Positions 41,520 through 57,977 of a stretch of 64,000 nt of DNA are shown here, one piece after another (position 1 is the first letter of the stretch; every line of letters starts with the position of its first letter). Source of the stretch: an uncultured Chitinophagales bacterium. GTDB taxonomy: Bacteria > Bacteroidota > Bacteroidia > Chitinophagales > S012-47. The translations under genes were made by a program, and so were the position numbers. The stretch is from NCBI GenBank assembly GCA_964471795.1, contig CAYYHM010000007.1, positions 1,221 to 65,220 on the forward strand, written 5' to 3'. Below the pieces are notes generated by a model, which worked only from the letters and a program-made list of their open reading frames with translations, made no database searches and was not told the DNA's origin.

Positions 41520-41612
41520 GGCGTGATATTTATGGGCGATAGGATGACGTTTATCATGTGAAAGGCTACGATGGGTTGTGTATTTTAGCGCAAACCAACC
41601 ATCCCCGCAACC

Positions 41613-42746: not shown

Positions 42747-42763
42747 CCCAAACACCCATTACC

Positions 42764-44899
42764 ATGGAAAGAAAGAACATTGCCCAACTCGACTATAGCC
42801 GGCTACAAAAAGACTTTGCAGCAACCGATTCGCAAAACGTGTGGACGGCACCTGAGGAAATCGACATCCTGAACCGGTATTCGCCTGCGCTGCTCAGGGA
42901 CTTGCAGCACCTGCACTATGCGGCCGGTATTCCGCCCTTTTTGCGAGGGCCTTACAGCACCATGTACGTCATCCGTCCGTGGACCATCCGCCAGTATGCA
43001 GGATTCAGCACAGCCGAAGAGAGCAACGCCTTTTACAGGCGCAACCTCGCAGCCGGACAGAAGGGCCTCAGCGTAGCATTCGACCTGCCTACGCACCGGG
43101 GGTACGACTCCGACAATCCGCGGGTGGTGGGCGATGTGGGCAAGGCCGGAGTAGCCATCGACTCCATCCTCGACATGAAGGTGCTGTTCGACAGCATACC
43201 CCTCGACCAGATGAGTGTGAGCATGACCATGAACGGGGCGGTGATACCCATCATGTCCTTTTACATTTTGGCAGCGGAAGAACAAGGCGTGAAGCCGGAG
43301 CAGCTTAGCGGCACCATACAAAACGACATCCTGAAGGAGTTCATGGTGCGGAACACCTACATCTATCCGCCCGGTCCGTCCATGCGCCTCATTGCCGACA
43401 TCTTCCGGTACACGGCCAAGCACATGCCGCGCTTCAACTCCATCTCCATCAGTGGCTACCACATGCACGAAGCGGGTGCTCCGGCCCATGTGGAGCTGGC
43501 CTACACCCTGGCCGATGGCTTGGAGTATGTGCGTACCGGACTAGCTGCCGGCTTGTCCATTGACGAGTTTGCCCCGCGGCTATCCTTCTTTTGGGGCATC
43601 GGCATGAACCACTACATGGAGGTAGCCAAGATGCGGGCCGGCCGGTTGTTGTGGGCCAAGGTGATTCAGCAGTTCAACCCCCAAAGCGACAAATCCCTGG
43701 CCTTGCGTACCCACAGCCAAACCAGCGGCTGGAGCCTCACCGAGCAGGATCCCTTCAACAACGTGGCGCGTACCTGCATAGAAGCCCTGGCAGCTGCGCT
43801 GGGCCACACGCAAAGCCTGCATACCAACGCGCTGGACGAGGCCATTGCGCTGCCTACCGACTTCTCGGCACGCATTGCGCGGGAAACGCAGTTGTATTTG
43901 CAGAAAAAGACCAACATCACCCGCACGGTGGATCCGCTGGGTGGTTCGCGGTATGTGGAATACCTCACCGATCAGCTGGTACGTAAGGCGTGGGCGCTGA
44001 TACAGGAGGTAGAAGAGCTGGGTGGTATGGCCAAGGCCATTGAAAGTGGGGTGCCCAAGATGCGCATTGAAGAAGCCGCTGCCCGCAAGCAAGCCCGCAT
44101 TGATGCCGGCAAGGAGGTGATTGTGGGAGTCAACCGCTATCGCCCTGAATCGGAAGCCGAGATACCGATATTGGAGGTGGACAATTCGGCAGTGCGGGAG
44201 AAGCAGATAGCCAGGCTGCAGGAGCTGCGTGCCCAACGCAACGAAGCGGAGGTACAAGCTGCCCTGCAAGCCATCACCGAGGGAGCCCAAACCACCGAGG
44301 CCAACTTGCTGGAACTGGCGCTGGATGCGGCCCGTAAGCGTGCTTCCTTGGGCGAGATCAGCGATGCCATGGAGAAAGTATTCGGTAGATTTACCGCAAC
44401 TACACGTTCCATTTCGGGTGTATATGCAGCGGAGATGAACCACGAAGAAGCATTTGACGAAGTACGGGCGCTGGCCGACCGCTTTGCAGAACTGCAAGGT
44501 CGCAGGCCGCGCATCATGGTAGCCAAGATGGGGCAGGATGGCCACGACCGGGGCGCCAAAGTGATTGGCACCTCCTTTGCCGATCTGGGCTTTGATGTAG
44601 ACATAGGGCCACTGTTCCAAACCCCTGCCGAGGTAGCGCGCCAGGCAGCGGAGAATGATGTGCACCTGATTGGTGTGTCATCCTTGGCAGCAGGGCATAA
44701 GACCTTGGTGCCGCAGCTGATAGAAGAACTGAAAAAGATAGGCCGCGAAGACATCCTTGTGATTGTAGGGGGCGTGATCCCCCACCAGGATTATGACTTC
44801 CTCTTCAAGGCTGGTGTGGTAGGTGTATTCGGCCCGGGTACCCGCATTCCCGATGCGGCTGCGGAGATACTAGAGACTTTGATGAAGCGGGTGGAGTAG
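42764..44899 (+). CDS. scpA: Methylmalonyl-CoA mutase large subunit (B12-dependent)
   Basis: 711 aa. [58 protein letters not shown]-terminal B12-binding domain [24 protein letters not shown]. Confidence 0.95.
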
Positions 44900-44916
44900 A
44901 TGGAATGAGTTGAAGA

Positions 44917-44966
44917 GCCTGCCTGCCGTTAGGTCGGCCTGCCTGCCATCATGCCTACAGGCAGGC
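44917..44966. repeat. GCCTGCCTGCC motif cluster and hairpin downstream of the mutase gene
   Basis: GCCTGCCTGCC at 44917-44927 and 44937-44947. The inverted partial copy CAGGCAGGC at 44958-44966 can pair with 44937-44945. The same 11-mer (as GGCAGGCAGGC) forms the core of the heptamer elements at 27096 and 57933. Confidence 0.8.
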
Positions 44967-45028
44967 TAAAGAGGAGAGTAGGAGCTCATTAAAAATAGTC
45001 TGCTAGAAAAGTGCTGATAGCTGTAGAC

Positions 45029-45107
45029 CTGACAGGTTTTCAAAACCTGTCAGGTCTACAGCTATCCAAAATAAACCTCCAAGGTTTCAAAAACCTTGGA
45101 GGTTTGC
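45029..45107. repeat. 79-bp double-hairpin element, copy 1
   Basis: CCTGACAGGTTTTCAAAACCTGTCAGG...AAACCTCCAAGGTTTCAAAAACCTTGGAGGTTT. 74 of 79 positions are identical, without gaps, to 54851-54929. In this copy the first palindrome extends to 45025-45059 (17-bp arms). Confidence 0.95.
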
Positions 45108-45364
45108 CACCAAGTATATCCCTAAGCGGTGTCTTTTCCGAACCGAGCAGGGTAGTCATTTAACCGTTTTGAATCCTGGGCGAGTACCTGGCGCCTTGGG
45201 TATCTCTTAGGCAATAGATAGGAAGGCACTTGGTGGTATAATTTACAGGTTTGGTGTTGTGCTGGTGTAGTTCCCTTCATTCATTGTCCGTTCTCCCTGT
45301 CACCTACATGTTACTTCTTACCGATAGACTTGCATATCAATGAAAAATTCAATTTCTTCATAAC

Positions 45365-46390
45365 ATGAAACACCTCATCCTCACCCTATTACTTGGCTGC
45401 ACTGGCCAACTCACCTTCAGCCAAACCAATAACTGGGCTCCGGTAGGAGCGAAGTGGATGTACAATTACATCTATTGTAATACTGACCCTTACTGTGGAT
45501 ATGCCATTTTTGAATCCATTGGGGATACTACTATTCTGGGTAAAACTTGTCGGAAGGTTCGTAGAGAAGAGGTTTTACTTGACTCAAACGATACCTTTTG
45601 GGCCACAGGCTCTTCTTTTTATTCGGACTCAATTCTTTTTATTTATGAGGATAGTGGGCAAGTGAATGTGTATGACAAAGTCAACAGCGAATTCTTTACC
45701 CTGTATGATTTTAGTTTAGGCGCTGGTGACTCATTAATTATAGCTGATACATTGACCAGCAGAGGCTTTGTAGGAGCGCATTGCAATCCAGCCTGGCCCG
45801 AAAAGAATGTAAGGTTTTGTTACCCCATAGCCTATAAGATTGAAAGGGATACACAGGTGATGATCAATGGTACCAGTCATTATGCGCAAATTCCGGCTCG
45901 TGATGCTTCATATCAGGGGAAACAAAGTGGATTGGGTTTCGGGGAAAATTTTTTACTTGTTGAAGGTATTGGTGCTACTGGTCCCAACTTATTTGGATAC
46001 GATCCTAATAGTCTATTATTATATCCTATGGCTCCAGGCCGCCTTTTATGCTATACCATTAAAGATTCTGTGGTATGGAATGATCCTGCAGTCGATTGTC
46101 TGAATTTAACTACCGTACCTACAATAGAGCAAAAATCAGCTATTGTGGAAGTGTTTCCCAATCCCAACAACGGCACTTTCCAGTTGGTGCTTGAAGAAGA
46201 GGTACTACAAAAGGCGCAGGGCAAAATAGGTTATAAAGTATTGGATAGCACCGGGCGTACAGTCCATACGGGGAATATTTCCTCTATAGAAACCACTGTT
46301 AGTTTACCGGCATTGCCGGCAGGGGTGTATTTATTGCACTTTCCAAGTACAGCCTACAATACTACACCAATTATTATTCAATACCCATAA
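45365..46390 (+). CDS. T9SS cargo protein, unknown function
   Basis: 341 aa. Signal peptide MKHLILTLLLGCTGQLTFSQ. CTD VFPNPNNGTFQLVLEEE...LPAGVYLLHFPSTAYNTTPIIIQYP. Low GC (a sampled line is about 40%). Confidence 0.75.
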   Translation: MKHLILTLLLGCTGQLTFSQTNNWAPVGAKWMYNYIYCNTDPYCGYAIFESIGDTTILGKTCRKVRREEVLLDSNDTFWATGSSFYSDSILFIYEDSGQVNVYDKVNSEFFTLYDFSLGAGDSLIIADTLTSRGFVGAHCNPAWPEKNVRFCYPIAYKIERDTQVMINGTSHYAQIPARDASYQGKQSGLGFGENFLLVEGIGATGPNLFGYDPNSLLLYPMAPGRLLCYTIKDSVVWNDPAVDCLNLTTVPTIEQKSAIVEVFPNPNNGTFQLVLEEEVLQKAQGKIGYKVLDSTGRTVHTGNISSIETTVSLPALPAGVYLLHFPSTAYNTTPIIIQYP

Positions 46391-46402
46391 GAAACACATT
46401 TC

Positions 46403-47995
46403 ATGAAAAACCTTTCTTATATCACCTGGCTCCTACTATCCCTTCAGATCATTCTAAGTGCGCAGGTGCAGGCCCAGCCACATCTTACCAAAACTGATTT
46501 CTTCGGTGGAAGCGGCTATGATGGGATATTTACAGGCTATCCTACTGCCGAGGGATGGCTATTGGTAGCTACCACTACCAGCACTGATGGTACGGTTTCC
46601 TGCACCAATACCAGTGTACGAGGGCATACCTGGGTGATACAATTAGACACTGCTGATCAGGTGGTATGGCAGCAGTGCTACCCACAAAATGAGGGTACAG
46701 TGCCTTGGTTTATTGAGCCTTATGGTGATGGTACGTACATTATTTTTGGCGAAAGCCGGGAAGATACCACCCTATTGCCCTGCCACAAAGGCTCAGATGA
46801 CCTCTGGCTGCTGCATATCGATAGCCTGGGGCAGCAAATCAGCCAACATTGCTTTGGGGGTAGTGCTATTGAAAAGGTATACGACTTCAGGAAAACTAGT
46901 CAAGGTACATACATAGTGGCTGCCCGAAGTCATAGTTCTGATGGTGATTTATCCCCATACTACGCGTCTACCTTTGTAGAAGATGCCTGGGTGTTTGAGT
47001 TGGACAGCTTCTTCAATATCACCTGGTCCTTGCAATGGGGCGGTACTTCCTACGACCAGGCCAATGCCATAGCCGAACATCCACACGGTGGCTATGTGGT
47101 GGCAGCTAATAGCAACTCCAGTGATGGCGATGTATCCACCAATACCGGGAAATCAGACCCCTGGCTATTGCGGTTAGACACAGCCGGGCAGGTAGTATGG
47201 CAAAAGCACTATGGCAAGCCTACCCATGAAGACAATCTGCACCTGCTCGTTGACAGTGCCGGTTATAGCTACCTGGCCATGGAGTCCGATCCGATACAAG
47301 GGGTGAAGGGCGGAGCCGATATCCGGCTAATGAAAATAGACACACAAGGCAATGTAGTATATGATACCTACGTAGGCGGCAACTGGGAGGAGCGTATTGA
47401 TGACTTTAAGTGGCTCGAAGGTAATCTGTTGATTGCAGGGGGTAGTAATTCTACCGGGGATGGTGTACCCGGAAATTATGGTGGACAGGATATATGGTTG
47501 GCCGTTGTTGATACCCAATTGCAGGTGTTACGATCAAATCATTATGGGGGGAGTTCCTCAGACAGAGTTTACAGTATACAAATACAGGAGAACAGAGTTA
47601 AATCATTCGGGTTTACGAAATCGGTTGATTATGATTTTTCAAGTAATCCTTTCAATATTGGACCCAGTGGCAAATGGGTAGGTATATTTTGCGAATGGAT
47701 TTCTTACCCGGTCGGTATTCCCATACCAGATAAGCAAGAATCTATTGGCGTACAGCTATACCCCAATCCCAGTAACGGCACATTCCAATTGGTGCTTGAT
47801 GAAGAGGTACTACAAAAGGCTCACGGGAAAGTAGACTATCAAGTATTGGATAGTACTGGTCGTACTGTCCATACTGGGAATATTTCCTCTATAGTAACCT
47901 CTGTTAATTTACCCGCATTGCCGGCAGGGGTGTATTTATTGGACTTTCCAAGGACAGCTTACCATGCTATACCAATTCTTATTCAATACCCATAA
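46403..47995 (+). CDS. T9SS cargo protein with ~55-60-aa beta-propeller-like repeats
   Basis: 530 aa with a signal peptide. Repeats of the type GG(S/T)xxDxxxxI...GGYxxA..S.SSDGDVS...G..D.WLL.LD..GQVVW. The CTD is 62/79 identical (my count) to that of the upstream gene. Confidence 0.75.
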   Translation: MKNLSYITWLLLSLQIILSAQVQAQPHLTKTDFFGGSGYDGIFTGYPTAEGWLLVATTTSTDGTVSCTNTSVRGHTWVIQLDTADQVVWQQCYPQNEGTVPWFIEPYGDGTYIIFGESREDTTLLPCHKGSDDLWLLHIDSLGQQISQHCFGGSAIEKVYDFRKTSQGTYIVAARSHSSDGDLSPYYASTFVEDAWVFELDSFFNITWSLQWGGTSYDQANAIAEHPHGGYVVAANSNSSDGDVSTNTGKSDPWLLRLDTAGQVVWQKHYGKPTHEDNLHLLVDSAGYSYLAMESDPIQGVKGGADIRLMKIDTQGNVVYDTYVGGNWEERIDDFKWLEGNLLIAGGSNSTGDGVPGNYGGQDIWLAVVDTQLQVLRSNHYGGSSSDRVYSIQIQENRVKSFGFTKSVDYDFSSNPFNIGPSGKWVGIFCEWISYPVGIPIPDKQESIGVQLYPNPSNGTFQLVLDEEVLQKAHGKVDYQVLDSTGRTVHTGNISSIVTSVNLPALPAGVYLLDFPRTAYHAIPILIQYP

Positions 47996-48005
47996 ATCAC
48001 CAATT

Positions 48006-51000
48006 ATGCAAAACGTACTGCTTACCATTTCAGTTATCATGGCTGTTGCCCTGAGCACAACAGCGCAAACCTGGCACACGCTGATGGCCAACCCGGAATT
48101 AGACTATGATTCTGTTGCATCCATCATGAATACCTATTTCACAGAACCACCGGACTCCAGCATACTGGAAGCTCCGGAAAGTGGTGGCACCGGCCCTGCC
48201 AGTTGGGAGAGTGAGGCCACCCATTACTCCCGGTGGCAATGGTTCTGGGAAACTCGTTTAGGCGTTGTAGATAGTCAACCCAGGCAGTTTCAGCCGCTTG
48301 CCGAGGCCATTTTTGACTGGGTAGACAATTATCCAACAATGAATTGTGCTTCGGATATTTTTCAAGCAGATTGGCAATGTATCGGTCCTTTTGAACATGA
48401 GCACCAGCGAATGGGCAGGATAGAAGCCATCTGGGTGGACCCTGCTGACCAAAATAACATCCTGGCGGCCAGCAACAGCGGAGGCCTTTGGCGATACAAT
48501 GCGGCTGGGCCGGTAAACTGGGAATGTATCACCGATGGATCTGGCATACCTGCTTTAGGTATCAACAAGATACTGGTAGATCAATCAGGTGCTGAAGATC
48601 ACATCATTTGCGGTACCGGTTTCAATGCGCAGGGAGCCAATTATTACGGGGTGGGTATAATAGAGTCCACCGATGGTGGAGATACCTGGAGTATAGATGA
48701 AGGATTTAGGGACGTGCTGGTTAGCACTGGTATCGGAAAGCGATTCCGGCAATATTATCCTACCGTAGAAGATGTGGAGTTTTTGCCTGGAAGTAATCAA
48801 CTAATAGCCACCTGTAGAAATCACATTCTCATCAAAGATGCCAATGGCAATTGGAGCCGTGTGTATAGTCATTATGATATAGATGGTAATGGAGATACCA
48901 ATCGATTAGTGGTAAGGTTGCATGATATTGAAATAGTACCTGGTACCAATGGCCAAACTATTTTGATTGGGAGTGCGGATGAGAATGGAAATGGTGGAGG
49001 AGCGGTCTTATTAAAATCAACTAATGGAGGCCAAAATTGGAATCGCGTAATCCTGCCTTCCAGTGCAAGTGAGATGTTGGGTTCTAACAGGGATTTCGAG
49101 TTTCAGTATGGGACAACACCGCCAACACCGCCATATTTTGTTAATTGGTTTGAAGACCCAAATTGGGGGACATCAGGTTGGGAGCACTGGCAGTCGTCAA
49201 CTATCGGAGGCAATAGGGTAGCTTCAATCGCTCCCTTGAATAATGGGAACAATGCAAAACTCATTCGAGGATTTAATAAAGCCATCTTACATGGAGTAGA
49301 GTATTTGCTGGAGTTCGACTATGATATTCCTGTTGATTGCCGATTGGAAATATATTTAACCAAGAAAGACAACCAAGGCCATTATACCCATACCTATTAT
49401 GATGAGTTGGCTTCTGGAAATGGCAGAGCAGAGATTGTCCTTAAGCATTTTGATGGCAATGTCAATACGGGTTATTACTTCTTTAGTCTTCAGCCTGTTT
49501 ATGATGGCTCCCAGGCACAATCGCCAGATAATGTGTGGGTTGATAATTTTAGTCTCAAGTCCAATGTGGCTCAACTGATTTCCATTGAAACACCGGGATC
49601 AGAAAACTGGTTTGTTGCACAGTCCATGGTTGGCTCAGGAAGTGGCATTATAGAATACAATGATTTCGGAAATGGTTATAAGTGGGATGTGATTGCCACT
49701 AATGTTGGAATAGGAAAATTTGCAAGGTATGCGGTAAACACCAGCAATCCCGATATCATGTACCTCGGGAATGTTTATATAACTAAATCAACTAATCGAG
49801 GAAACAACTTTACATCTATCCACCCATCTGGGAATAAATCCGTTCATGTAGATATACGACATTTATCTGTTTATGCAGCTTCGACTGATGGTTTATCGGA
49901 CAAAATATACATGGGTACAGATGGTGGCGTTTCTTATTCGGCACATGGAGGTGCTGTAAACCAATGGATAGATATGAATGGCAACGGATTGGCCATTAGC
50001 CAGTTTTACGGATTTGCCAACCATGAACAAGATGCCAGTAAGATTCTTGGAGGCACCCAAGATAACGGCACTGTCATTACCTATGACAAACTGGAGTGGG
50101 ACATTAAGACAGAGAGTGACGCTTATGAAGGGGTAATGAAACGAAGCGATAATTCCATTTGGTTTATGGAAAAAGGGCCGGGGTGGGACAGGTCTAACCT
50201 TTATAGAACAGACCTTCCAGGTGAAAGAGATCCACCTAACATAAGTAATGAAAATATTCCAGATTTTAGCCTTAACGTAAAGCCTATCGATTACCATTTA
50301 CAACTACAAGACAAATTATTTATTGGTTATCACCGATTTTTTAGGAGCAATGACGATGCTGAAACACCTGCTGGATGGGTAGAATTGAATGCGGATAAAT
50401 CTAAGCCCCTCAAAACCTTTGCACTCGACACCTACAATCCCGATGCGGATAAGTATTATGTGGGATATAAAAGGAGGAGTGATAATGGTGTACTATTGCT
50501 TGGTGAAGGATTTCCAAATCCTGATTGGTCCAATGGAGATAGGTCTTCAGGCTTACCGACTAAATGGTACCCAATTACCGGCATCGCAACAGATCCTTAC
50601 AACTTTGACCGGGTGTGGGTGTCATTTGGAGATATTTCATACAATGAGCATCCGGACGGGGGATTTCGTGGCCGGGTGTCCTACTCTGCCACAGGAGGTG
50701 CGAATGGGGATTGGACGGATATGTCGCAAGGATTGCCACAGTTCCCGGTGAATAAGATCATTTATCTTGAAAATAGCGATGACATACTTTTTGCTGCAAC
50801 TGATGTAGGGGTTTATATATGGAATAAAAATGCAGGGACAAATGGAATGTGGGAGTGTTTTAACCAGGGTATGCCTACTGCCTTGATTACCGACCTCGAA
50901 GTTAATTATTGTACTGGCACATTGCGTGCGGCTACGTATGGAAGAGGAATTTGGGAAACACCTTTACCCAATTTAGATCTGCAAGTCAAAGAGGTAACTA

Positions 51001-53309
51001 CGAACACAGTTTGGAATTTAAAAATGAATTTCCCAACTGATTTAATCATCAAATCCGGCCAAACCCTCACCCTTGGCAGCGATGCCGTACTGAACATGGC
51101 CCCGGGCACCAGGATCATAGTAGAGCGTGGTGGAAAATTGATTGTGGATGGCGCTACCCTTACCAATACCTGTGGCAATTTCTGGACCGGCATCGAAGTA
51201 CACGGCCATGCAGACCAGCCGCACTACAGCCATTATGCTACACAAATAGCCCTGGGCACCTACCCGGTAGATAGCAATGACCACGGGGTGGTGGTAATTA
51301 AAAATGGGGGTACCATAGAAAATGCCCATGTTGGCATTACCAATGTAAAGAAGAATAATGGCGCTATATTGACCCATAGTGGAGGCATCATCATAGCCGA
51401 GGAGGCCAACTTTATCAACTGTTGGAAGGGCGTGGAGATGTACCAGTTTCGCCCCGATAAAGCGGGTTCAGCCTCCAACCCCAAACAAAACATCAGCCGC
51501 TTTACCAACTGCACCTTCAAAACCACCAGCGATTACTTTCATGATGACTATCCACCCACCGATTTTGTCACGCTGTGGGACGTACATGATGTACAATTTT
51601 CCGGCTGTACATTTGAAAATGAAGCCTATGCCGACTTTTTAGTGGACGATAGAGGCAATGGTATCACCTCCATTGATGCCACCTACCAACTGAAAGGCCG
51701 CTGCACAGCTTTTGATACAGACGGCAAGTGTACCACCTATCAGCGCAACAGCTTCTCTCACCTCACCGAGGGTATCAGCTATACGGCTTCTCTGGGGCAG
51801 CCCTTTATCACCTGGATAGACCGCACTGACTTTACCGGCAACGCCATAGGTGTACAGGCCAAAGGTACCCACCACGACTTCCGCGTAACACGCAGCCACT
51901 TTACCTTACCGACCAGTGCCAGTGTGAACAACCGCAGGTGTGCAGGGATAGAGTTACTGGGCAGCACCGGCTTTACAGTGGAAGACAACACCTTTGAGCA
52001 GTCGGCTACTTTTACCGGAAGTGAAAGTAGTGCGGGTATAAGAATAGGTGTATCGGGCCAAAAGGCCAACCGCATCTACCGCAATACCTTTACCAACATC
52101 ACCAACGGTATCTGGGCCGATGACGACAACCGTGGGCTACAGATCAAATGCAACACCTTTACCACTGGCACCATCCACAAGCACGATGTGATTGTATGTG
52201 GCAACTCGACACGCGATGGAATTGCTAAATTACAAGGAGAGTGCAGGCAAGATATATCTGACTTCGACTACTTCTCCGCCCCTGCGGGTAACCTCTTCAG
52301 CCAAAGCCAGGGGGTACAATACAGTGATTGGTACAATGCCACTGCCTTGCCTACCACGAAATACCACCATCATTTTACCAGCACAAGTAATGATCCGCTA
52401 GAGTTGGTTTACAAAAACAATGCTACAAACGAAGAGTGTGTAGCGGAATATGACGCAACTAAGGCCTGTCCGCTAAATCCCATCCTGGATGACGGTAAAG
52501 GCCCCAACCAGCAGATTAGTGAGCTGCGCACCCGCATGGCCGACATCCACACCGAACTGGATGGAGCTCCGGGAGGCGATTATGAAAAATACCTGAACAC
52601 CGAGCGGGAGCTGGCCTTATCCGAAGGTTACAAGCTATACCTGACGCACGACAGCCTGTATGGCCTTGACAGTGCGCGCTACTGGTTGGAGCAAGATACC
52701 AGTGACCTGGCCAAAGCCTTGTTGGTGGCACTCTATGTGCAAGAGGGAGACTATACCCTGGCAGACCAGGCGCTCGACTCCATTACCGACCTGGCCTACA
52801 CGGAAAACACCGGCAAGAGCTATCTGGATAAGCTGATCACCATTAAAAGCACCGATTGGCACTATAGCAGTACGGACAGCACCACCTTAGCGCAGGTAGC
52901 CGCCCTGGCCAACGATAGTACCACCTACGGTTGGCAAGCTTACGGTATGCTGGCGAGTGCCGGCTATCTGGAGTACCCGGTACCGGAGCCGCCTTGTGGC
53001 CCCGGTGCAGTGATCGGCTCCGGCAAGCGGGCTATGGACACGCTGACCGAAGCACCTGCCGCAAAAACTTTCCTGACCTTGCAGCCTAACCCCACCAGTG
53101 GAGGTGTTACCCTTACCTGGGATAGTGAAGGTGAACAAATAGACCTGCGGGTACTGACCCCTCAGGGCAAGGTAGTGTACCAGGCGCAAAGCTGGCCGGG
53201 TAGCGGTACGAGGCAAATAGCCACCCCTTGGCCGTCCGGTATGTACTTCATTGTACTCACCGATGATCAGGGCAAACAGCACAGCACCTCCTTACTGCTC
53301 ACCAAATGA
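48006..53309 (+). CDS. Large T9SS cargo protein: BNR/Asp-box propeller-like N-terminal part plus a probable right-handed beta-helix region
   Basis: Start at ATG 48006 (signal MQNVLLTISVIMAVALSTTAQT). Asp-box-like STDGGDTW, STNGGQNW and TDGGVSYS. Later NxxGI/NTF-type repeats (TFENEAY.., TFEQSAT.., TFTNITNGIWADDDNRGLQIKCNTF) suggest a parallel beta-helix. CTD FLTLQPNPTSGGVTLTW...SGMYFIVLTDDQGKQHSTSLLLTK. Confidence 0.8.
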   Translation: MQNVLLTISVIMAVALSTTAQTWHTLMANPELDYDSVASIMNTYFTEPPDSSILEAPESGGTGPASWESEATHYSRWQWFWETRLGVVDSQPRQFQPLAEAIFDWVDNYPTMNCASDIFQADWQCIGPFEHEHQRMGRIEAIWVDPADQNNILAASNSGGLWRYNAAGPVNWECITDGSGIPALGINKILVDQSGAEDHIICGTGFNAQGANYYGVGIIESTDGGDTWSIDEGFRDVLVSTGIGKRFRQYYPTVEDVEFLPGSNQLIATCRNHILIKDANGNWSRVYSHYDIDGNGDTNRLVVRLHDIEIVPGTNGQTILIGSADENGNGGGAVLLKSTNGGQNWNRVILPSSASEMLGSNRDFEFQYGTTPPTPPYFVNWFEDPNWGTSGWEHWQSSTIGGNRVASIAPLNNGNNAKLIRGFNKAILHGVEYLLEFDYDIPVDCRLEIYLTKKDNQGHYTHTYYDELASGNGRAEIVLKHFDGNVNTGYYFFSLQPVYDGSQAQSPDNVWVDNFSLKSNVAQLISIETPGSENWFVAQSMVGSGSGIIEYNDFGNGYKWDVIATNVGIGKFARYAVNTSNPDIMYLGNVYITKSTNRGNNFTSIHPSGNKSVHVDIRHLSVYAASTDGLSDKIYMGTDGGVSYSAHGGAVNQWIDMNGNGLAISQFYGFANHEQDASKILGGTQDNGTVITYDKLEWDIKTESDAYEGVMKRSDNSIWFMEKGPGWDRSNLYRTDLPGERDPPNISNENIPDFSLNVKPIDYHLQLQDKLFIGYHRFFRSNDDAETPAGWVELNADKSKPLKTFALDTYNPDADKYYVGYKRRSDNGVLLLGEGFPNPDWSNGDRSSGLPTKWYPITGIATDPYNFDRVWVSFGDISYNEHPDGGFRGRVSYSATGGANGDWTDMSQGLPQFPVNKIIYLENSDDILFAATDVGVYIWNKNAGTNGMWECFNQGMPTALITDLEVNYCTGTLRAATYGRGIWETPLPNLDLQVKEVTTNTVWNLKMNFPTDLIIKSGQTLTLGSDAVLNMAPGTRIIVERGGKLIVDGATLTNTCGNFWTGIEVHGHADQPHYSHYATQIALGTYPVDSNDHGVVVIKNGGTIENAHVGITNVKKNNGAILTHSGGIIIAEEANFINCWKGVEMYQFRPDKAGSASNPKQNISRFTNCTFKTTSDYFHDDYPPTDFVTLWDVHDVQFSGCTFENEAYADFLVDDRGNGITSIDATYQLKGRCTAFDTDGKCTTYQRNSFSHLTEGISYTASLGQPFITWIDRTDFTGNAIGVQAKGTHHDFRVTRSHFTLPTSASVNNRRCAGIELLGSTGFTVEDNTFEQSATFTGSESSAGIRIGVSGQKANRIYRNTFTNITNGIWADDDNRGLQIKCNTFTTGTIHKHDVIVCGNSTRDGIAKLQGECRQDISDFDYFSAPAGNLFSQSQGVQYSDWYNATALPTTKYHHHFTSTSNDPLELVYKNNATNEECVAEYDATKACPLNPILDDGKGPNQQISELRTRMADIHTELDGAPGGDYEKYLNTERELALSEGYKLYLTHDSLYGLDSARYWLEQDTSDLAKALLVALYVQEGDYTLADQALDSITDLAYTENTGKSYLDKLITIKSTDWHYSSTDSTTLAQVAALANDSTTYGWQAYGMLASAGYLEYPVPEPPCGPGAVIGSGKRAMDTLTEAPAAKTFLTLQPNPTSGGVTLTWDSEGEQIDLRVLTPQGKVVYQAQSWPGSGTRQIATPWPSGMYFIVLTDDQGKQHSTSLLLTK

Positions 53310-54814
53310 GGATAGTAATGCGGATTATTGGATTACTCATGTTCTACCTGGGGCTGGGCATCACACTCCATGCCCAGCAACCCTTTGCCTATCCCATAGA
53401 CTTTGAAGATAATGTGGAGACAGCAGGGCAAATGACCATATATAATGATACAGTCTATTTTTTATCAAAGGGTTGGTCGCAAACGGATACACTGCGAAGG
53501 CGAAAAATGGTTCTACAGGCCTGTGATTTGGAGGGGCAGGTGATTTTTCAGCAAAAGCTATTTGGAGACGATATGCATAGCTATCAACCCGCCCCCTTCA
53601 ATGAACTACCGGTAACCAATGACGGTCACTTTCTGGTAGTAGGTATGCGAAATGATTTGATCAGCCCCACCCATCAGGCGGACATCTTTGTGGCGAAGGT
53701 GACCCGGCAGGGCGATACGGTGTGGACGAAGACCTACCCGCGGTACAACACCAGCGAGTGGCCCTTTGCTATTGGGTATAGCCCCAATGGGATGCTCATT
53801 ATCACCGGTGCCCGTAACAAACCGGGTGGTGACCTGGATGGTATGATTGTAGCCATTGATACCGCTACAGGTCAGTTTTTATGGGAGAATTATATTGACT
53901 ATGGAGAGCATGATGGATTTTCCGATTTGGAATTTGATTCTACAGCCATGGAAATCATTGTTAGTGGAGGTACACTGGCCTCTGGTATGAGTGGTTTTAA
54001 AGGTATGTTATGGTATTTTGATTATAGTGGGAAGTTTTTGCGTTCTAAGATGCTTTCCGGTCTGGAAGCTGGAGGTATTTCTCATTTGGCAAAGGCATTT
54101 GGAGGTCATGTTTCATTACAAAAAACACTCACCAATACTTTCGAGTACTATCCCCATCGCATCAGAAAATATAACCAAAACTGGAATGTACAATGGACCA
54201 CTATGATAGATGACCTGGGTGACGATTCAGAAATTGCTGAGGTATTTACCCTACCAGATGGGTCGATATGGATGGTAGGCTGGGCGTACACCAGTACCCA
54301 GCAGTATGCACAGGCGCTGAAGCTGGACAGTACCGGTACCATTGTGTGGCACAGGCGCTACTTCAGCAAGGATGTCACCGGCAGTAGTCCGCTCATCAAC
54401 TACGCCAACTACTACCCCGGCCCCAATGCCGTGTATGCAGTGGGTACCGTTACCGGTCCCGGGCAGAACAACAGCGACTCCTGGCTGGTGCGCTTCGATA
54501 GCATGGGCTGCCTGGTCCCCGGCTGCGATACGCTTTACACCGGCACGGCTCCCATGCCTTTCCAACCTGCCACCCTCCACATCTACCCCAACCCCGGCAC
54601 CACACAACTCACCATCGACCTGCCACCGGATTGGATCACCACCGCCACCCACCTACAGCTCCGCAACCTGCGCGGACAGATCGTCCACCACCAAGCCACA
54701 CAAGGCAACCTCCGTCAAACCGTAGCTACAGGTCATCTGCCTGCCGGCCTCTACCTCGTAGAGGTATGGAGTTCGGATGGTATGCTGGGCAGGGAGAAGT
54801 GGGTGAAATTGTGA
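53306..54814 (+). CDS. T9SS cargo protein with beta-propeller-like repeats
   Basis: 502 aa. The ATGA start/stop overlap with the upstream gene suggests translational coupling. Repeats are of the type D.FVAKVTRQGDTVWTKTY, DGMIVAIDTATGQFLWENY and DSWLVRFDSMGCLV. CTD LHIYPNPGTTQLTIDL...LPAGLYLVEVWSSDG. Confidence 0.75.
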   Translation: MRIVMRIIGLLMFYLGLGITLHAQQPFAYPIDFEDNVETAGQMTIYNDTVYFLSKGWSQTDTLRRRKMVLQACDLEGQVIFQQKLFGDDMHSYQPAPFNELPVTNDGHFLVVGMRNDLISPTHQADIFVAKVTRQGDTVWTKTYPRYNTSEWPFAIGYSPNGMLIITGARNKPGGDLDGMIVAIDTATGQFLWENYIDYGEHDGFSDLEFDSTAMEIIVSGGTLASGMSGFKGMLWYFDYSGKFLRSKMLSGLEAGGISHLAKAFGGHVSLQKTLTNTFEYYPHRIRKYNQNWNVQWTTMIDDLGDDSEIAEVFTLPDGSIWMVGWAYTSTQQYAQALKLDSTGTIVWHRRYFSKDVTGSSPLINYANYYPGPNAVYAVGTVTGPGQNNSDSWLVRFDSMGCLVPGCDTLYTGTAPMPFQPATLHIYPNPGTTQLTIDLPPDWITTATHLQLRNLRGQIVHHQATQGNLRQTVATGHLPAGLYLVEVWSSDGMLGREKWVKL

Positions 54815-54850
54815 GACTTTCAAAAATTGTTGATTTATAGGGTTATAAGT

Positions 54851-54929
54851 CCTGACAGGTTTTCGAAACCTGTCAGGTCTGACGATATCCAAAATAAACC
54901 TCCAAGGTTTCAAAAACCTTGGAGGTTTG
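54851..54929. repeat. 79-bp double-hairpin element, copy 2
   Basis: CCTGACAGGTTTTCGAAACCTGTCAGG...AAACCTCCAAGGTTTCAAAAACCTTGGAGGTTT. See copy 1. Starts 36 nt after the stop of the last T9SS gene. Confidence 0.95.
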
Positions 54930-55169
54930 AGCATAAGATAATCTATTATTTAATACCCATACTTAGCCTCACTGCGCCATGCTCCTCACGATATGACATA
55001 GCTTGCAGGTAAGAACTGATTTTATTTCAAGAATAAGATTATTTTCGATCCCTGTTTCGGCCATTGGAAGGATGGTGATAAAGTCCAACTCTTCAGTTCG
55101 ACATCCATTTCCTTGTTGTGGACCGCTTCAGGTGCAGCGTATCTTACTGGTAATGTAAACTAATTAGAT

Positions 55170-56189
55170 ATGTTTGACTATCTGAAGCGAAAAGTATTGT
55201 CCAACCGCAAGCTGCGAAAGGCCATCATCAGGGTACTGCGTCAGCAGCAATTATCCACTTTCTCCATCCACAAGTTTACGGTCTACGACTCGTTCAGGAA
55301 GGACAATGGTCGAGACATCGATCTATATAAAGGGCTCCGGTCGTTTGTGAATCCCGATTGGGAAAAGATGTTCCAGGCGCAAAAGGATACCGCTGATATC
55401 CCCTTTGATGCAGATATAGATTTGTTGACCAAGGAGTCCATGCTGTACTTCCTCTACTTCGAGAAGGTACTCATGTCATACGATATTTCCATGCAGGGTA
55501 GAAAGCTGTTGGAAATTGGGGCCGGCAACATGTTGCTATCCTGCCTGATGGCGAAAAAGTACCCGGATACGGAGATAGTAGCCAGTGGCGTGGATAGTTA
55601 CTACGATGATCTGGGAAAGGGTGCAGCCATTCAGGAAGCACGCAAAAAAGTGATGAACCATTTTGGTGTTTCTCTACCGTATGTGGCCGACAGTATCACC
55701 AGCAGTTCCTTTGAGGATGCTTCTTTCGATGTCCTTTTCAGTAACACCGTTTTGGAACATGTAGACGACATCAATGCCTGCTTCAATGAGATGAAAAGGA
55801 TACTGAAGCCGGGTGGTATCGGGTTCCATTTTTACAATCCCTTTTTCAGCTACAATGGTGGCCATACCAGCTGTAGTACCGATCATCCCTGGGGGCATTG
55901 TGTGCTCAGTGAGGCTGAATATTTGCGTTACCTCAAGGAAAAGGATGCCGCGAATGTAGACATCTCCATCACCTTTTACCGGAATGATTTGAACAAGAAA
56001 AGCCTGAAAGAATTCCGGGATGCCTTGGCTGCAGCAGGGTTTTCGCAGTACTCCATGATTCCGGAGACCAATTTCAATGTGAGCCAGTTGTTGCTGCCCT
56101 TCACGCTGCAGGAAACCAGGCAACACTATCCATTGATCACCCTGGAGGATCTGCTGACCAACTCGGTGTTGGTGGTTTTCCAAAAGTGA
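55170..56189 (+). CDS. Class I SAM-dependent methyltransferase
   Basis: 339 aa. Motif I-like LLEIGAGNMLLS and a Methyltransf_11-like FDVLFSNTVLEHVDD...LKPGG. Confidence 0.75.
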   Translation: MFDYLKRKVLSNRKLRKAIIRVLRQQQLSTFSIHKFTVYDSFRKDNGRDIDLYKGLRSFVNPDWEKMFQAQKDTADIPFDADIDLLTKESMLYFLYFEKVLMSYDISMQGRKLLEIGAGNMLLSCLMAKKYPDTEIVASGVDSYYDDLGKGAAIQEARKKVMNHFGVSLPYVADSITSSSFEDASFDVLFSNTVLEHVDDINACFNEMKRILKPGGIGFHFYNPFFSYNGGHTSCSTDHPWGHCVLSEAEYLRYLKEKDAANVDISITFYRNDLNKKSLKEFRDALAAAGFSQYSMIPETNFNVSQLLLPFTLQETRQHYPLITLEDLLTNSVLVVFQK

Positions 56190-56199
56190 TTACGGGCTA

Positions 56200-56226
56200 C
56201 CGGAAGCAAGACTCTTCTTGTTCCGG
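56200..56226 (+). terminator. Hairpin between the methyltransferase and pnuC (terminator or attenuator candidate)
   Basis: CCGGAAGCAAGA-ctc-TCTTGTTCCGG (11 bp with one bulged G). There is no clear T-run. Its presence argues for the pnuC start at ATG 56245. Confidence 0.4.
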
Positions 56227-56244
56227 TATCTATCTTTGCGTGCC

Positions 56245-56877
56245 ATGTGGCAAACCGTAATTGATTTCCTGATAGCGCCCTACGAAGGCACTGCCACGTA
56301 CCTCATCGTGCTGGAAGCCATTGCGGTTGTGTTTGGTATTGCTTCGGTGTATTTCGCCAAGCAGCAGAACATCCTCGTGTATCCTACCGGCATTGTCAGC
56401 ACGTTGATCTATGTCTACATCCTGGCCATAGGGGCCTTCTTTGGCGATATGATGATCAACGGCTACTACACCATCATGAGTGTGTACGGGTGGGTGGTAT
56501 GGAGTAGGGTGGGCACGGATCATGCACCTCTCAAGGTAAGCTGGACCACACCACGAGAGCGTTGGATAGCATTGGGATTGTTTGCCATTACGGCCATCGT
56601 AGTATTTGTAGTGTACCAGGTGTATGGCAAGTTTGGTGCCTGGTACGATTATACCGATATGTTCACCACAGGCGTATTCTTTGCCGGCATGTGGCTGATG
56701 GCGAGGAAGAAGATCGAGAACTGGCACCTGTGGCTGATCGGAGATGTGGTTTCCATTCCGCTGTACTATGTGAAAGGCTATGGGATATCCATGTTGCAGT
56801 ATGCTGTATTTTTAGTGTTGGCTTGGCAAGGATTCCAGGCATGGAAGAAAAGCTATTACATAGCTAGTGATACATAG
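56245..56877 (+). CDS. pnuC: Nicotinamide riboside transporter PnuC
   Basis: Multi-TM protein with VYFAKQQNILVYPTGIVSTLIYVYI and WLIGDVVSIPLYYVKG, typical of PnuC. The track start TTG 56218 is possible but would overlap the hairpin. Confidence 0.85.
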   Translation: MWQTVIDFLIAPYEGTATYLIVLEAIAVVFGIASVYFAKQQNILVYPTGIVSTLIYVYILAIGAFFGDMMINGYYTIMSVYGWVVWSRVGTDHAPLKVSWTTPRERWIALGLFAITAIVVFVVYQVYGKFGAWYDYTDMFTTGVFFAGMWLMARKKIENWHLWLIGDVVSIPLYYVKGYGISMLQYAVFLVLAWQGFQAWKKSYYIASDT

Positions 56878-56894
56878 AGAAAGGCCTAACTGAA

Positions 56895-57083
56895 TCAAGA
56901 AAATGCCAGACAAGCGCTGATATGGATATCAGTGATTTCCGGAAAGTCTGCTTTGATTTCTTCTCGTGTCATACCGGACGCCAGCCAACTTAACACATCA
57001 TACACAGAAATTCTGGTTCCTTTGATGCAAGGTTTTCCAAAGCGTTTGTCCGGATTGATTACGATATAAGCTGAATAGTCCAT
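56895..57083 (-). CDS. DUF433 domain protein (antitoxin-like HTH), no partner gene
   Basis: MDYSAYIVINPDKRFGKPCIKGTRISVYDVLSWLASGMTREEIKADFPEITDIHISACLAF is the typical DUF433 pattern. The start is set at the second ATG (57083). Confidence 0.75.
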   Translation of the reverse strand: MDYSAYIVINPDKRFGKPCIKGTRISVYDVLSWLASGMTREEIKADFPEITDIHISACLAFS

Positions 57084-57201
57084 GATTGTTTTTGTGGGTG
57101 TTCCAAATATAAGTGGAATGGCCGTAATAAAATTCATAACACATCTGTACGGAATGGGAGTAGCATGGACGCATCCTTGAGTTGATTACCTTTGAAGACC
57201 C

Positions 57202-57774
57202 ATGGCATCCCTGCTTCATCAAGAAAAGATTCCAGAGCTCATCAGAGTAGTCCTGTACGGCCCGGAAAGTACCGGTAAAACCACGATGGCGAGGCTGTTG
57301 GCCATGCACTACGATACCGAATGGGTACCCGAATACGCACGGGAATACCTGGAGGAGAAGATGATACGTACCGGTGTCAACTGCCTGCTGGAAGATATCC
57401 TGCCCATCGCCATTGGGCAGCAGCAGTTGGAGAATCAATTAGCTCTCCAAGCGCGCCACCACCTGTTGGTCTGCGATACCGACTTGCTCACCACCAAAGC
57501 CTACTCCGACCTGTTTTATGGGGAAAGTCCGCCCGAACTGAATGCAGCCATTCCTCACCTGTACCACGACTTATACCTGCTCACCGACATTGATGTGCCC
57601 TGGCAAGCTGATGCCATCCGCGACAGGCCGGATAGTCGTGCTGTCATGTTGGCTTATTTCGAGGAACTGCTGCACCGATATGGTAAACGCTATGTGAAGA
57701 TATCCGGCAACGTAGAGGAGCGTTTACAACAAGCCATACCCATCATTGACGAACTGTTGGGTAAACCCGTTTGA
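57202..57774 (+). CDS. NadR-type nicotinamide riboside kinase / AAA ATPase domain protein
   Basis: 190 aa. P-loop VVLYGPESTGKTTMARLLA and EWVPEYAREYL resemble the NadR C-terminal RNK domain. Genomic association with pnuC. Confidence 0.75.
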   Translation: MASLLHQEKIPELIRVVLYGPESTGKTTMARLLAMHYDTEWVPEYAREYLEEKMIRTGVNCLLEDILPIAIGQQQLENQLALQARHHLLVCDTDLLTTKAYSDLFYGESPPELNAAIPHLYHDLYLLTDIDVPWQADAIRDRPDSRAVMLAYFEELLHRYGKRYVKISGNVEERLQQAIPIIDELLGKPV

Positions 57775-57872
57775 GTTGTTCATTTGGTGGAAAAAGAATG
57801 ATGATGACTAACTGCCTTCCTGTTATTTTGGATGCCGGACATTGGATGTTGGACGTTTGACAATTGACCGAC

Positions 57873-57977
57873 AACTTTGAACTTTAAACTTTAAACTTTA
57901 AACTTTAAACTTTGAACCTTGAACCTACCTACGGCAGGCAGGCTTTGAACCTTGAACTTTCAACTTTGAACTTGCAC
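57873..57977. repeat. Heptamer microsatellite arrays (AACTTTA/AACTTTG/AACCTTG) flanking the core CCTACCTACGGCAGGCAGGCTT
   Basis: aactttgaactttaaactttaaactttaaactttaaactttgaaccttgaaCCTACCTACGGCAGGCAGGCTTtgaaccttgaactttcaactttgaacttgc. The 11-mer is at 57933-57943. The element overlaps the track's 5' end of meaB. Confidence 0.9.

What the first reader, a model, noticed from the sequence alone, without database searches (positions are those of the whole stretch)
45029..54929. A 79-bp double-hairpin element in direct orientation flanks the 9.7-kb four-gene T9SS-cargo cluster
45029-45107 and 54851-54929 align without gaps, 74/79 identical. Each copy carries two near-perfect palindromes built on the same centre (AGGTTTTCAAAACCT and AGGTTTCAAAAACCT): CCTGACAGGTTTTC(A/G)AAACCTGTCAGG and AAACCTCCAAGGTTTCAAAAACCTTGGAGGTTT.

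Everything between the copies is T9SS cargo: four consecutive genes with signal peptides and CTDs, the first three clearly low-GC. The cluster separates scpA from the rest of the locus.

The element could be a REP/MITE-like repeat acting as a terminator. It could also be the duplicated homology left by insertion of the cluster, which would be a third instance of the terminator-repeat / island / repeat topology in this window.
Basis: partly seen in the sequence, partly recalled or inferred. Interest (0 to 1): 0.6.

Follow-up and report, generated by a model that had tools for sequence, protein, structure and literature searches.

The report
REP hairpin doublets, not insertion scars
The two 79-bp repeats are pairs of small mobile DNA palindromes (REP elements), spread by a known class of domesticated transposase and found widely in Bacteroidota and related phyla, that sit at the ends of two transcription units; they are an ordinary repeat family, not the scars of the secreted-protein gene cluster's insertion.

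Summary
The units at 45028-45106 and 54851-54929 are 74/79 identical, and each holds two 33-nt perfect or near-perfect palindromes (hp1 and hp2).

Both palindromes belong to one widespread family, A[A/G]ACCT-N4-GGTTT-loop-AAACC-N4'-AGGT[T/C]T. It occurs in many Bacteroidota, Balneolales and Ignavibacteria genomes, mostly just after stop codons.

In other genomes these hairpins flank a ~200-aa HUH/Y1 protein, and often sit in frame inside its gene. That protein's best matches are the REP-associated tyrosine transposase model and E. coli TnpAREP (4ER8). Among its 120 best homologues, 68 carry the hp2-encoded peptide and 13 the hp1-encoded peptide at the same site. This matches the published TnpAREP subclass 2.4.

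The element is therefore a REP doublet, most likely acting as a 3'-end RNA hairpin (terminator or stabiliser; inferred).

The insertion-scar reading is not supported:
- Two relatives have scpA adjoining meaB (directly in one, one 110-aa ORF between in the other), so the insert is about 13 kb and copy B lies inside it.
- A related contig carries cargo genes 1 and 4 elsewhere, with no upstream copy.
- The homology between the copies stops exactly at the hairpin bases.

Copy number and a RAYT gene in the source genome could not be checked. Verdict: new member of a known kind, low-to-moderate interest.

The parts
45016..45066 (.). Copy A, hairpin 1. The 33-nt REP core AGACCTGACAGGTTTTCAAAACCTGTCAGGTCT is at 45025-45057. 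Here it extends to a perfect 51-nt palindrome with GTAG...CTAC directly outside the core.
   Evidence: I3: 25-nt arms, 100% complementary; 24-bp stem in the RNA fold.
45058..45072 (+). Copy A spacer (ACAGCTATCCAAAAT). Its first 9 nt also form the outer stem of the extended hp1.
   Evidence: It is 11/15 identical to the copy B spacer.
45073..45105 (.). Copy A, hairpin 2: the 33-nt REP AAACCTCCAAGGTTTCAAAAACCTTGGAGGTTT, with 15-bp arms and a 3-nt loop.
   Evidence: (I2). The same 33-mer consensus was found in at least 118 loci of other genomes.
54848..54880 (.). Copy B, hairpin 1 (AGTCCTGACAGGTTTTCGAAACCTGTCAGGTCT). It has one stem mismatch and one loop change relative to copy A, and no outer extension.
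54881..54895 (+). Copy B spacer (GACGATATCCAAAAT).
54896..54928 (.). Copy B, hairpin 2, identical to copy A hairpin 2.
42764..44899 (+). scpA (methylmalonyl-CoA mutase large subunit). Copy A hp1 in its extended form begins 117 nt after the stop codon.
   Evidence: PF01642 E = 1e-226, PF02310.
45365..54814 (+). Four T9SS-CTD cargo genes (45365-46390, 46403-47995, 47964-53309, 53306-54814). Copy B begins 34 nt after the last stop codon.
   Evidence: PF18962 in all four; GC, N-termini. Logan contig L120 equals this block and breaks at the repeats.
44900..57911 (.). About 13 kb that is absent between scpA and meaB in relatives. It holds REP doublet A, the cargo cluster, REP doublet B, a methyltransferase (55170-56189), pnuC (56218-56877) and an AAA_28/NadR-like gene (57202-57774).
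   Evidence: L133; L135.
57912..58970 (+). meaB, the ancestral downstream neighbour of scpA.
   Evidence: PF03308 E = 1e-106.

Best explanation
Each 79-82-bp unit is a doublet of two REP (repetitive extragenic palindrome) elements, hp1 and hp2, separated by a 15-nt spacer.

hp1 and hp2 are two sequence variants of a single 33-nt palindrome family: A[A/G]ACCT-N4-GGTTT-loop-AAACC-N4'-AGGT[T/C]T. They differ by compensatory changes in the stem. In other genomes this family is the cognate repeat of a RAYT/TnpAREP-type HUH-Y1 transposase.

Shown:
- The family is widespread and sits mostly at 3' ends of genes.
- In other genomes it flanks the RAYT-like gene and is embedded in frame inside it.
- Both hairpin types occupy the same site in different RAYT homologues.

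Inferred:
- The two copies in this window arrived, or were kept, as ordinary members of that family. One lies at the 3' end of the mutA-scpA unit and one at the 3' end of the cargo operon.
- On the transcript they form very stable hairpins that end or protect the 3' end, as described for E. coli REP/BIME elements.
- They were spread by RAYT acting on single-stranded DNA hairpins.

They do not delimit the inserted DNA and are not a by-product of its insertion.
For: 1. Family and distribution. Most are from Bacteroidota, Balneolales and Ignavibacteria. The conserved unit is exactly 33 nt with a free loop, and there is no conservation beyond the stem base. Stem variants keep complementarity: CTCCAA, CTTCAA, CCCCAA, CTGTCA and others. 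hp1 and hp2 differ at 10 of 33 positions: eight are four compensated stem pairs and two lie at the loop (sequence).

2. Position. Among the 81 instances between two called ORFs, 27 are between convergent genes and 6 between divergent genes (p = 1.6e-4). In tandem contexts the median distance to the upstream stop codon is 38.5 nt.

3. RAYT link.
- The most recurrent protein next to the hairpins (9 loci) is about 200 aa with PNH[LF]H and YIH[NL]NP motifs.
- It hits NCBIfam REP_Tyr_transpos at E = 1e-18 (65-67 bits, below the 80-bit cut-off) and Pfam Y1_Tnp weakly.
- Its only PDB match is E. coli TnpAREP, 4ER8.
- JGI names its homologues 'REP element-mobilizing transposase RayT'.
- Its genes are flanked by hairpins on both sides in L001, L061, L090 and L111. 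[quoted passage not shown]
- Of the 120 best homologues, 68 carry the hp2-encoded LQGFxNLGG peptide and 13 the hp1-encoded LTGFxNLSG peptide at the same site.
- L130 has hp2 in its 5' flank, and half an hp2 plus a full hp1 inside the gene.

4. Doublets. hp1-spacer-hp2 doublets recur in other organisms with unrelated spacers.

5. Literature. Quentin et al. 2018 (PMC6006769) describe TnpAREP subclass 2.4, equal to Bertels group 4. It is found in Cyanobacteria and Bacteroidetes, has the motifs NH[IFV]H and YIxNNP, averages about 194 aa, and uniquely has REPs inserted in frame within tnpAREP between HuH and Y. It also has 'double foot' GT[AG]G...C[TC]AC REPs. Copy A hp1 has exactly such GTAG/CTAC feet.

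6. Against an insertion scar.
Against: - No RAYT gene lies in the 64-kb window. The rest of the source genome could not be searched, so neither high copy number nor a cognate RAYT is shown for this organism. Only two doublets are seen, and both are in the same 13-kb insert.
- The two copies share a related spacer (11/15), unlike doublets elsewhere. They do have a common doublet ancestor within this lineage.
- The family lacks the conserved GTAG/CGTC foot of canonical REPs.
- The RAYT-like proteins score below the curated cut-offs of both the NCBIfam and the Pfam model.
- On the + strand the hairpins are followed by only three U residues, so they are not canonical intrinsic terminators. The scan flagged hp2 only on the - strand.
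- No transcript data are available.
Confidence: 0.78

Rival explanations
1. Insertion footprint. The cargo cluster entered between scpA and the downstream genes by recombination at, or duplication of, the 79-bp element, so the two direct copies are the junctions of a 9.8-kb island.
For: - The two copies are in direct orientation and bracket exactly the four cargo genes.
- Their spacers are related (11/15), whereas doublets in other organisms have unrelated spacers.
- The cargo genes have lower GC than scpA.
- The cluster is found in other flanks in L134, so it is rearranged between genomes.
- The window/L134 homology ends 4 nt after the hp1 right arm.
Against: - Relatives L133 and L135 have scpA followed by meaB (directly in L135, one 110-aa ORF between in L133). 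The insert is about 13 kb and extends 3 kb beyond copy B. Low GC also continues beyond copy B.
- L134 has no element upstream of cargo gene 1. Homology starts only about 40 nt before its ATG, 258 nt downstream of copy A.
- The repeat boundaries coincide with the hairpin bases, as expected for discrete REP units rather than arbitrary recombination homology.
- The spacer is about 27% diverged against about 3% for the hairpins.
- The same hairpins are dispersed in many unrelated genomes.
Confidence: 0.08
2. Purely endogenous terminators. The hairpins are ordinary host-encoded intrinsic terminators, similar only because of convergent selection for a stable A-tract/stem/U-tract hairpin, with no mobility and no transposase involved.
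For: - The family sits at 3' ends: 27 convergent against 6 divergent sites, and a median of 38.5 nt after stop codons.
- The stems are very stable.
- The AAA...TTT bases of the stem resemble a bidirectional terminator. hp2 was flagged on the - strand.
Against: - Near-identical 33-nt stem sequence across several phyla while the loop is free.
- Hairpins flanking and embedded in RAYT-like genes.
- In-frame copies inside other genes.
- Tandem arrays: at least 66 copies in 61 kb of an Ekhidna MAG.
- Only three U residues follow the hairpins on the coding strand here.
Confidence: 0.07
3. MITE. The 82-bp unit is a non-autonomous DNA transposon with terminal inverted repeats, moved by a DDE transposase.
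For: Its size is discrete with sharp ends. The two ends are partly inverted copies of each other (ACCT..GGTTT against AAACC..AGGT).
Against: - There is no target-site duplication at either copy.
- Each half is a self-contained palindrome that also occurs alone.
- The associated protein in other genomes is HUH/Y1, not DDE.
Confidence: 0.03

Closest known systems
REP elements with RAYT/TnpAREP (REPtrons), especially TnpAREP subclass 2.4 of Quentin et al. 2018 (PMC6006769), equal to RAYT group 4 of Bertels et al.
   Same: - Short (33 nt) extragenic palindromes, multi-copy, mostly at 3' ends of genes.
- The transposase gene is flanked by the palindromes.
[quoted passage not shown]
- The HUH motif is NHxH, the Y motif is YIxxNP, and the protein is about 200 aa.
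- It occurs in Bacteroidetes.
- Copy A hp1 has GTAG...CTAC 'double feet'.
   Different: - The family as a whole has no conserved GTAG/CGTC foot, and no run of three G-C pairs at the stem base. The base is A-T.
- The stem sequence is nearly identical across phyla, whereas REPs are usually lineage-specific.
- The proteins score below the NCBIfam and Pfam cut-offs, and I could not assign the subclass formally. The motifs fit 2.4 or 2.6.
- No RAYT has been seen in the source organism.
E. coli BIMEs (bacterial interspersed mosaic elements: pairs of REPs with a defined spacer)
   Same: Two REP variants side by side with a short spacer, in 3' untranslated or intergenic positions. From established knowledge of E. 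coli, their roles include mRNA stabilisation and termination.
   Different: Here each REP is a perfect self-palindrome, so orientation within the pair is undefined. No IHF or gyrase-type spacer motifs are known. The function is untested.
REPINs (Bertels & Rainey 2011: two inverted REPs that fold into one long hairpin and move as a unit)
   Same: A doublet of REPs that seems to be copied as a unit within this lineage; the spacer is shared by copies A and B.
   Different: hp1 and hp2 are not complementary to each other and fold separately. No super-hairpin forms.
Rickettsia palindromic elements (RPEs)
   Same: Palindromic repeats that can sit in frame inside protein-coding genes. The 33-nt unit is 11 codons and, apart from its variable loop, has no stop codon in any frame.
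   Different: RPEs are 100-150 bp, restricted to Rickettsia, and have no known transposase.

Membership tests
REP / RAYT (REPtron) | Short (about 20-40 nt) palindromic unit able to form a stem-loop | tested here: met
   The units are 33 nt with 15-16-bp arms.
REP / RAYT (REPtron) | Many dispersed, mostly extragenic copies within one genome | tested here: inconclusive
   The source genome shows only 2 doublets (4 hairpins) in 64 kb; the rest could not be searched. In other genomes, 3-8 separate loci per assembly were seen despite a truncated scan, and at least 66 hairpins in 61 kb of an Ekhidna MAG.
REP / RAYT (REPtron) | A cognate Y1/HUH transposase gene (RAYT) flanked by the REPs | tested here: inconclusive
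   Met in other genomes: 9 loci from the genome scan plus 2 metagenome loci (L129, L130).
REP / RAYT (REPtron) | Conserved GTAG or CGTC tetranucleotide at the foot of the hairpin (Di Nocera 2013, PMC3733652; E. coli TnpAREP guide sequence) | tested here: not met
   There is no conserved tetranucleotide outside the 33-mer in 108 instances. GTAG/CTAC is present only at copy A hp1.
TnpAREP subclass 2.4 (Quentin 2018) | [quoted passage not shown] | tested here: met
   81 of the 120 best homologues carry an hp1- or hp2-encoded peptide at about residues 76-104. The motifs are PNH[LFIV]H and YIH[NL]NP (paper). Formal assignment with the authors' profiles was not done.
REPIN | Two REPs in inverted orientation that pair with each other into one long hairpin | tested here: not met
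   The minimum-free-energy fold shows two independent hairpins, and the arms of hp1 and hp2 differ in the central 4 nt.
MITE | Terminal inverted repeats plus target-site duplications | tested here: not met
   The flanks of copies A and B share no duplicated bases.
Intrinsic (Rho-independent) terminator | GC-rich stem followed by a U-run on the transcribed strand, with 3' ends mapping there | tested here: inconclusive
   The stems are strong. On the + strand only UUU follows, and it is part of the stem. The scan flagged hp2 only on the - strand. There are no transcript data.
Island att-type direct repeats | Repeats mark both ends of the DNA that is absent from relatives | tested here: not met
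   The DNA absent from L133 and L135 spans about 44.9-57.9 kb, and copy B is internal to it. L134 has the cargo genes with no upstream copy.

The most novel reading that the evidence does not exclude
REP hairpins of this family may act as recombination joints that shuffle T9SS-cargo cassettes between loci.

Three observations fit this reading:
- The doublets sit at module boundaries inside a 13-kb insertion.
- The homology between the window and a related cluster (L134) ends 4 nt after the hp1 right arm.
- L134 carries there a chimeric hairpin, with an hp2-type left arm and an hp1-type right arm. This is the product expected from strand exchange at the conserved GGTTT-loop-AAACC apex of two different REPs.

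If RAYT, or recombination at REPs, does this, a domesticated transposase would be driving cassette exchange of secreted proteins in Bacteroidota.
Probability: 0.1. Interest if true: 0.6.

Novelty: new member of a known kind. Interest (0 to 1): 0.3.

Why it matters
The result removes a tempting but wrong reading of two direct repeats as island boundaries. It replaces that reading with a checkable one: the repeats are REP doublets of a RAYT-linked family.

It has practical value for annotation:
- The 33-nt palindromes (ACCTCCAAGGTTT... and ACCTGWCAGGTTT...) break short-read assemblies. The Logan contigs end exactly in them.
- They can sit in frame inside genes, giving peptides such as NLQGFxNLGG.
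- They mark the 3' ends of transcription units in many Bacteroidota, Balneolales and Ignavibacteria.

Near-identity of the stem across phyla, with two variants both found embedded in the transposase gene itself, is a convenient natural system for studying REP-RAYT co-evolution. The principle, however, is already published.

Tried and rejected
- **Rfam.** Nothing at the gathering threshold. At E <= 1 there were only generic miRNA- or snoRNA-like hairpin matches, far below cut-off.
- **Structured leader.** The stretch between copy A and cargo gene 1 (45104-45245, CCACCAAGT...ACTTGGTGG) folds no better than shuffles (z = -1.3).
- **Literature search by sequence strings.** Only unrelated primers were returned. 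The supplements of Quentin 2018 held as text do not contain the motifs.
- **Plasmids.** No match.
- **Viral contigs.** The hp2 core gave none. hp1 gave 10 contigs. This does not argue for a phage origin.
- **Metagenome scan.** It found doublets in other organisms but no close copy of this window's composite.
- **Source genome.** Exact look-ups of scpA, the 1781-aa protein and the NCBI-called 498-aa protein found no record. So there is no genome-wide count and no RAYT search for this organism.
- **A relative lacking only the cluster.** The nearest scpA relative (85%, L132) ends 100 nt after scpA. The nearest methyltransferase homologue (66%) lies in an unrelated glycosylation locus.
- **Integron attC sites.** Considered by eye only and rejected: no RYYYAAC/GTTRRRY cores.
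- **Sequestration of Shine-Dalgarno and anti-Shine-Dalgarno sequences** (GGAGG and CCTCC in hp2). Rejected because hp1 lacks them.
- **Polarity of the doublet relative to the upstream gene.** Not consistent in other genomes.
Full report
**1. The observation**

The repeat exists. The repeat finder gives 45025-45106 against 54848-54929, 82 nt at 93% identity.

Each copy contains two 33-nt palindromes:
- hp1: AGACCTGACAGGTTTTCAAAACCTGTCAGGTCT, at 45025-45057 and 54848-54880.
- hp2: AAACCTCCAAGGTTTCAAAAACCTTGGAGGTTT, at 45073-45105 and 54896-54928.
- A 15-nt spacer separates them.

In copy A, hp1 is extended by the flank into a perfect palindrome with 25-nt arms (45016-45066), with GTAG...CTAC directly outside the core.

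The shared core occurs four times against 0.01 expected, and there are no further copies or half-sites in the window. The RNA folds are far more stable than shuffles: -65.9 and -47 kcal/mol, z = -16 and -7.

- mutA and scpA (42764-44899).
- Four proteins with the T9SS C-terminal domain (45365-54814).
- A methyltransferase, pnuC and an AAA_28/NadR-like gene.
- meaB (57912-58970).

**2. The hairpins are not local inventions**

Most are from Bacteroidota (Cytophagales, Flavobacteriales, Bacteroidales, Saprospiraceae), Balneolales and Ignavibacteria.

The conserved unit is exactly the 33-mer A[A/G]ACCTCCAAGGTTT-nnn-AAACCTTGGAGGT[T/C]T. The loop is free and nothing is conserved outside it. Other stem variants keep complementarity.

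hp1 and hp2 differ at 10 of 33 positions. Eight form four compensated stem pairs and two lie at the loop. They are two variants of one family.

hp1-type palindromes occur next to hp2 in other genomes and metagenomes, with unrelated spacers. hp1 also occurs in 10 IMG/VR contigs.

With crude ORF calls, the 131 hp2-core matches fall as follows:

| Context | Count |
|---|---|
| Between convergent genes | 27 |
| Between tandem genes | 48 (median 38.5 nt after the upstream stop) |
| Between divergent genes | 6 (convergent vs divergent p = 1.6e-4) |
| Inside ORFs | 24 |
| At locus edges | 26 |

**3. The associated protein**

I clustered all ORFs within 2 kb of the hairpins. The most recurrent family (9 loci) is a protein of about 200 aa with PNH[LF]H and YIH[NL]NP motifs.

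Its identity rests on these results:
- It hits the NCBIfam model 'REP-associated tyrosine transposase' at E = 1e-18. The score of 65-67 bits is below the 80-bit equivalog cut-off.
- It hits Pfam Y1_Tnp weakly.
- Its only match among solved structures is E. coli TnpAREP, 4ER8.
- JGI names its homologues 'REP element-mobilizing transposase RayT'.

The genes are flanked by the hairpins in L001, L061, L111 and L090, the last with arrays on both sides. [quoted passage not shown]

Among the 120 best database homologues, 68 carry the hp2-encoded peptide LQGFx[NT]L[GE][GE]. Another 13 carry the hp1-encoded peptide L[TS]GFxNL[ST]G at the same place. In metagenome locus L130 the gene has hp2 in its 5' flank, and half an hp2 plus a full hp1 inside.

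Both hairpins of the window's element are therefore cognate repeats of one RAYT family.

**4. Comparison with what is known**

Quentin et al. 2018 (PMC6006769) describe TnpAREP subclass 2.4, equal to Bertels group 4:
- Its motifs are NH[IFV]H and YIxNNP, and it averages about 194 aa.
- Its 'unique feature' is REP sequences inserted in frame within tnpAREP between HuH and Y.
- It also has 'double foot' REPs carrying GT[AG]G and C[TC]AC.

That is what I see, including the GTAG/CTAC feet on copy A hp1.

The differences are:
- The family as a whole has no conserved foot.
- The stem base is A-T rather than three G-C pairs.
- The stem sequence is unusually constant across phyla.

I infer that the in-gene copy travels with the transposase gene and keeps the repeat and enzyme matched. 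This is not shown.

I did not find the specific sequences in the searchable literature.

**5. Is the cluster 'flanked' in a meaningful sense?**

Two relatives (scpA 77-78% identical) have the order scpA, meaB, one or two small genes, then a class-I tRNA synthetase. In L135 meaB follows scpA directly; in L133 a single 110-aa ORF lies between them. The same order occurs at the outer edges of the window's region.

The DNA absent from these relatives is therefore about 13 kb (about 44.9-57.9 kb). It includes the methyltransferase, pnuC and the NadR-like gene. Copy B is internal to it, and GC stays at 0.47-0.53 beyond copy B.

A Logan contig from another sample (L134) carries cargo gene 1 (95.5% nt identity) and cargo gene 4 (87.6%). 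An S8 peptidase replaces genes 2 and 3, and the flanks are entirely different:
- Homology starts only about 40 nt before the ATG of gene 1, with no element upstream.
- Homology ends 4 nt after the hp1 right arm.
- There L134 has a chimeric hairpin, with an hp2-type left arm and an hp1-type right arm, followed by a small GGCC...GGCC-TTTT hairpin.

The homology between copies A and B ends exactly at the hairpin bases. Their spacer is 4/15 diverged while the hairpins are 2/66 diverged. All of this fits discrete REP units under constraint, not a duplication made by insertion.

The shared spacer does show that A and B descend from one doublet within this lineage. Whether that happened by REPIN-like copying of the doublet or by some local event cannot be decided without the rest of the genome.

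**6. How it most likely works**

Shown:
- Membership of a RAYT-linked palindrome family.
- Position at 3' ends of genes.
- Very stable folds.

Inferred from established REP/BIME biology:
- The doublets form RNA hairpins at the ends of the mutA-scpA and cargo transcripts, which terminate transcription or block 3' exonucleases.
- At the DNA level they are substrates of a RAYT acting on single-stranded hairpins.

They are not canonical intrinsic terminators on the + strand, because only three U residues follow.

**7. What could not be done**

The genome-wide copy count and a RAYT search in the source organism were not possible. No relative lacking only the cluster was found. The Logan contigs L119-L121 break exactly in the hairpins. 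Two copies alone would cause that, so it says nothing about further copies.

**8. Verdict**

The insertion-scar half is not supported. This is a new member of a known kind and of low-to-moderate interest.

The least ordinary residue is the chimeric hairpin at the homology breakpoint in L134. It leaves a small chance that these REPs take part in cassette exchange.

Noticed in passing
window 44900-57911, compared with L133 and L135: Relatives have scpA followed by meaB: directly in L135, with one 110-aa ORF between in L133. The window has about 13 kb between them: 4 T9SS cargo genes, a rare methyltransferase (only 11 homologues at E <= 1e-20), pnuC and a NadR-like AAA_28 gene. The nearest methyltransferase homologue (66%) sits in an unrelated glycosylation locus (L147).
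   Followed up: partly
window 44917-44948 (+), 27042-27139 and 57865-57972: A second repeat family: runs of a 7-nt unit (GAACCTT/GAACTTT) around ACCTRCGGCAGGCAGGC. The motif GCCTGCCTGCCG occurs just after scpA (+ strand), and in inverted orientation just before meaB and at 27095. The inverted pair 44917/57932 brackets the whole 13-kb insert. The 85% scpA relative L132 has the 7-nt repeats directly after scpA.
   Followed up: partly
L134 5675-5703 (Logan SRR19514075): A chimeric hairpin, AGACCTCCAAG-TTTTTAGAAACCTGTCAGGTCT, with an hp2-type left arm and an hp1-type right arm. It lies at the point where homology to the window ends. L124 and L131 hold another non-complementary hp1/hp2 fusion, whose in-frame translation reads like a T9SS C-terminal domain.
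   Followed up: partly
L134 2004-3914 against window 46403-53309: In the related cluster an S8 peptidase (636 aa) plus a 91-aa CTD fragment replaces cargo genes 2 and 3. The cluster's content is variable between close relatives.
   Followed up: no
window 46157-46390 and 47762-47995: The C-terminal sorting domains of cargo genes 1 and 2 are 88% identical over 234 nt. This suggests recent duplication or gene conversion.
   Followed up: no
RAYT homologues P0136-P0255; loci L001, L005, L054, L090, L112, L129, L130: 81 of the 120 best RAYT homologues carry an in-frame REP at the same site. It is either hp2-type (LQGFxNLGG) or hp1-type (LTGFxNLSG), as if these were two alleles of the embedded repeat.
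   Followed up: yes
L002 7019, L020 3162, L065 2390: The 33-nt REP lies at the same position inside homologous long ORFs in three Balneolaceae/Balneola-type genomes. The flanking sequence resembles a sensor-kinase ATPase region; this reading was by eye, with no domain search. The unit is 11 codons and, apart from its variable loop, has no stop codon in any frame.
   Followed up: partly
L076, L090, L028 (Ekhidna MAG JACONI01); L143 12950-13080: Dense tandem arrays of the hairpins. There are at least 66 copies in 61 kb of the Ekhidna loci, including both sides of its RAYT gene. A GC-rich IMG/VR contig holds three hp1 copies at a 51-nt period.
   Followed up: no
window 21738-21820 and 25847-25929; 34906-38058; 28222-28663: Other repeats in the window:
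- An 83-nt direct repeat (96%) ending in a canonical GC-stem/T-run terminator.
- Several 33-62-nt repeats spaced about 1.5 or 3 kb apart (1479-3017 bp) around a DUF805b RNA hit (36523-36556, at its gathering score).
- Three tandem copies of about 150 nt.
   Followed up: no
window 40740-42755 (-): The 671-aa GTG ORF is probably over-extended. Only residues 424-670 match enoyl-CoA hydratase, relatives encode 235-259 aa, and the rest overlaps mutA on the other strand.
   Followed up: no
L006, L052, L082, L084, L099, L104: Another recurrent intergenic motif, GAGGCTGTCCAAAAAGT, and its complement lie beside the REPs in several Balneolales and Bacteroidota genomes.
   Followed up: no
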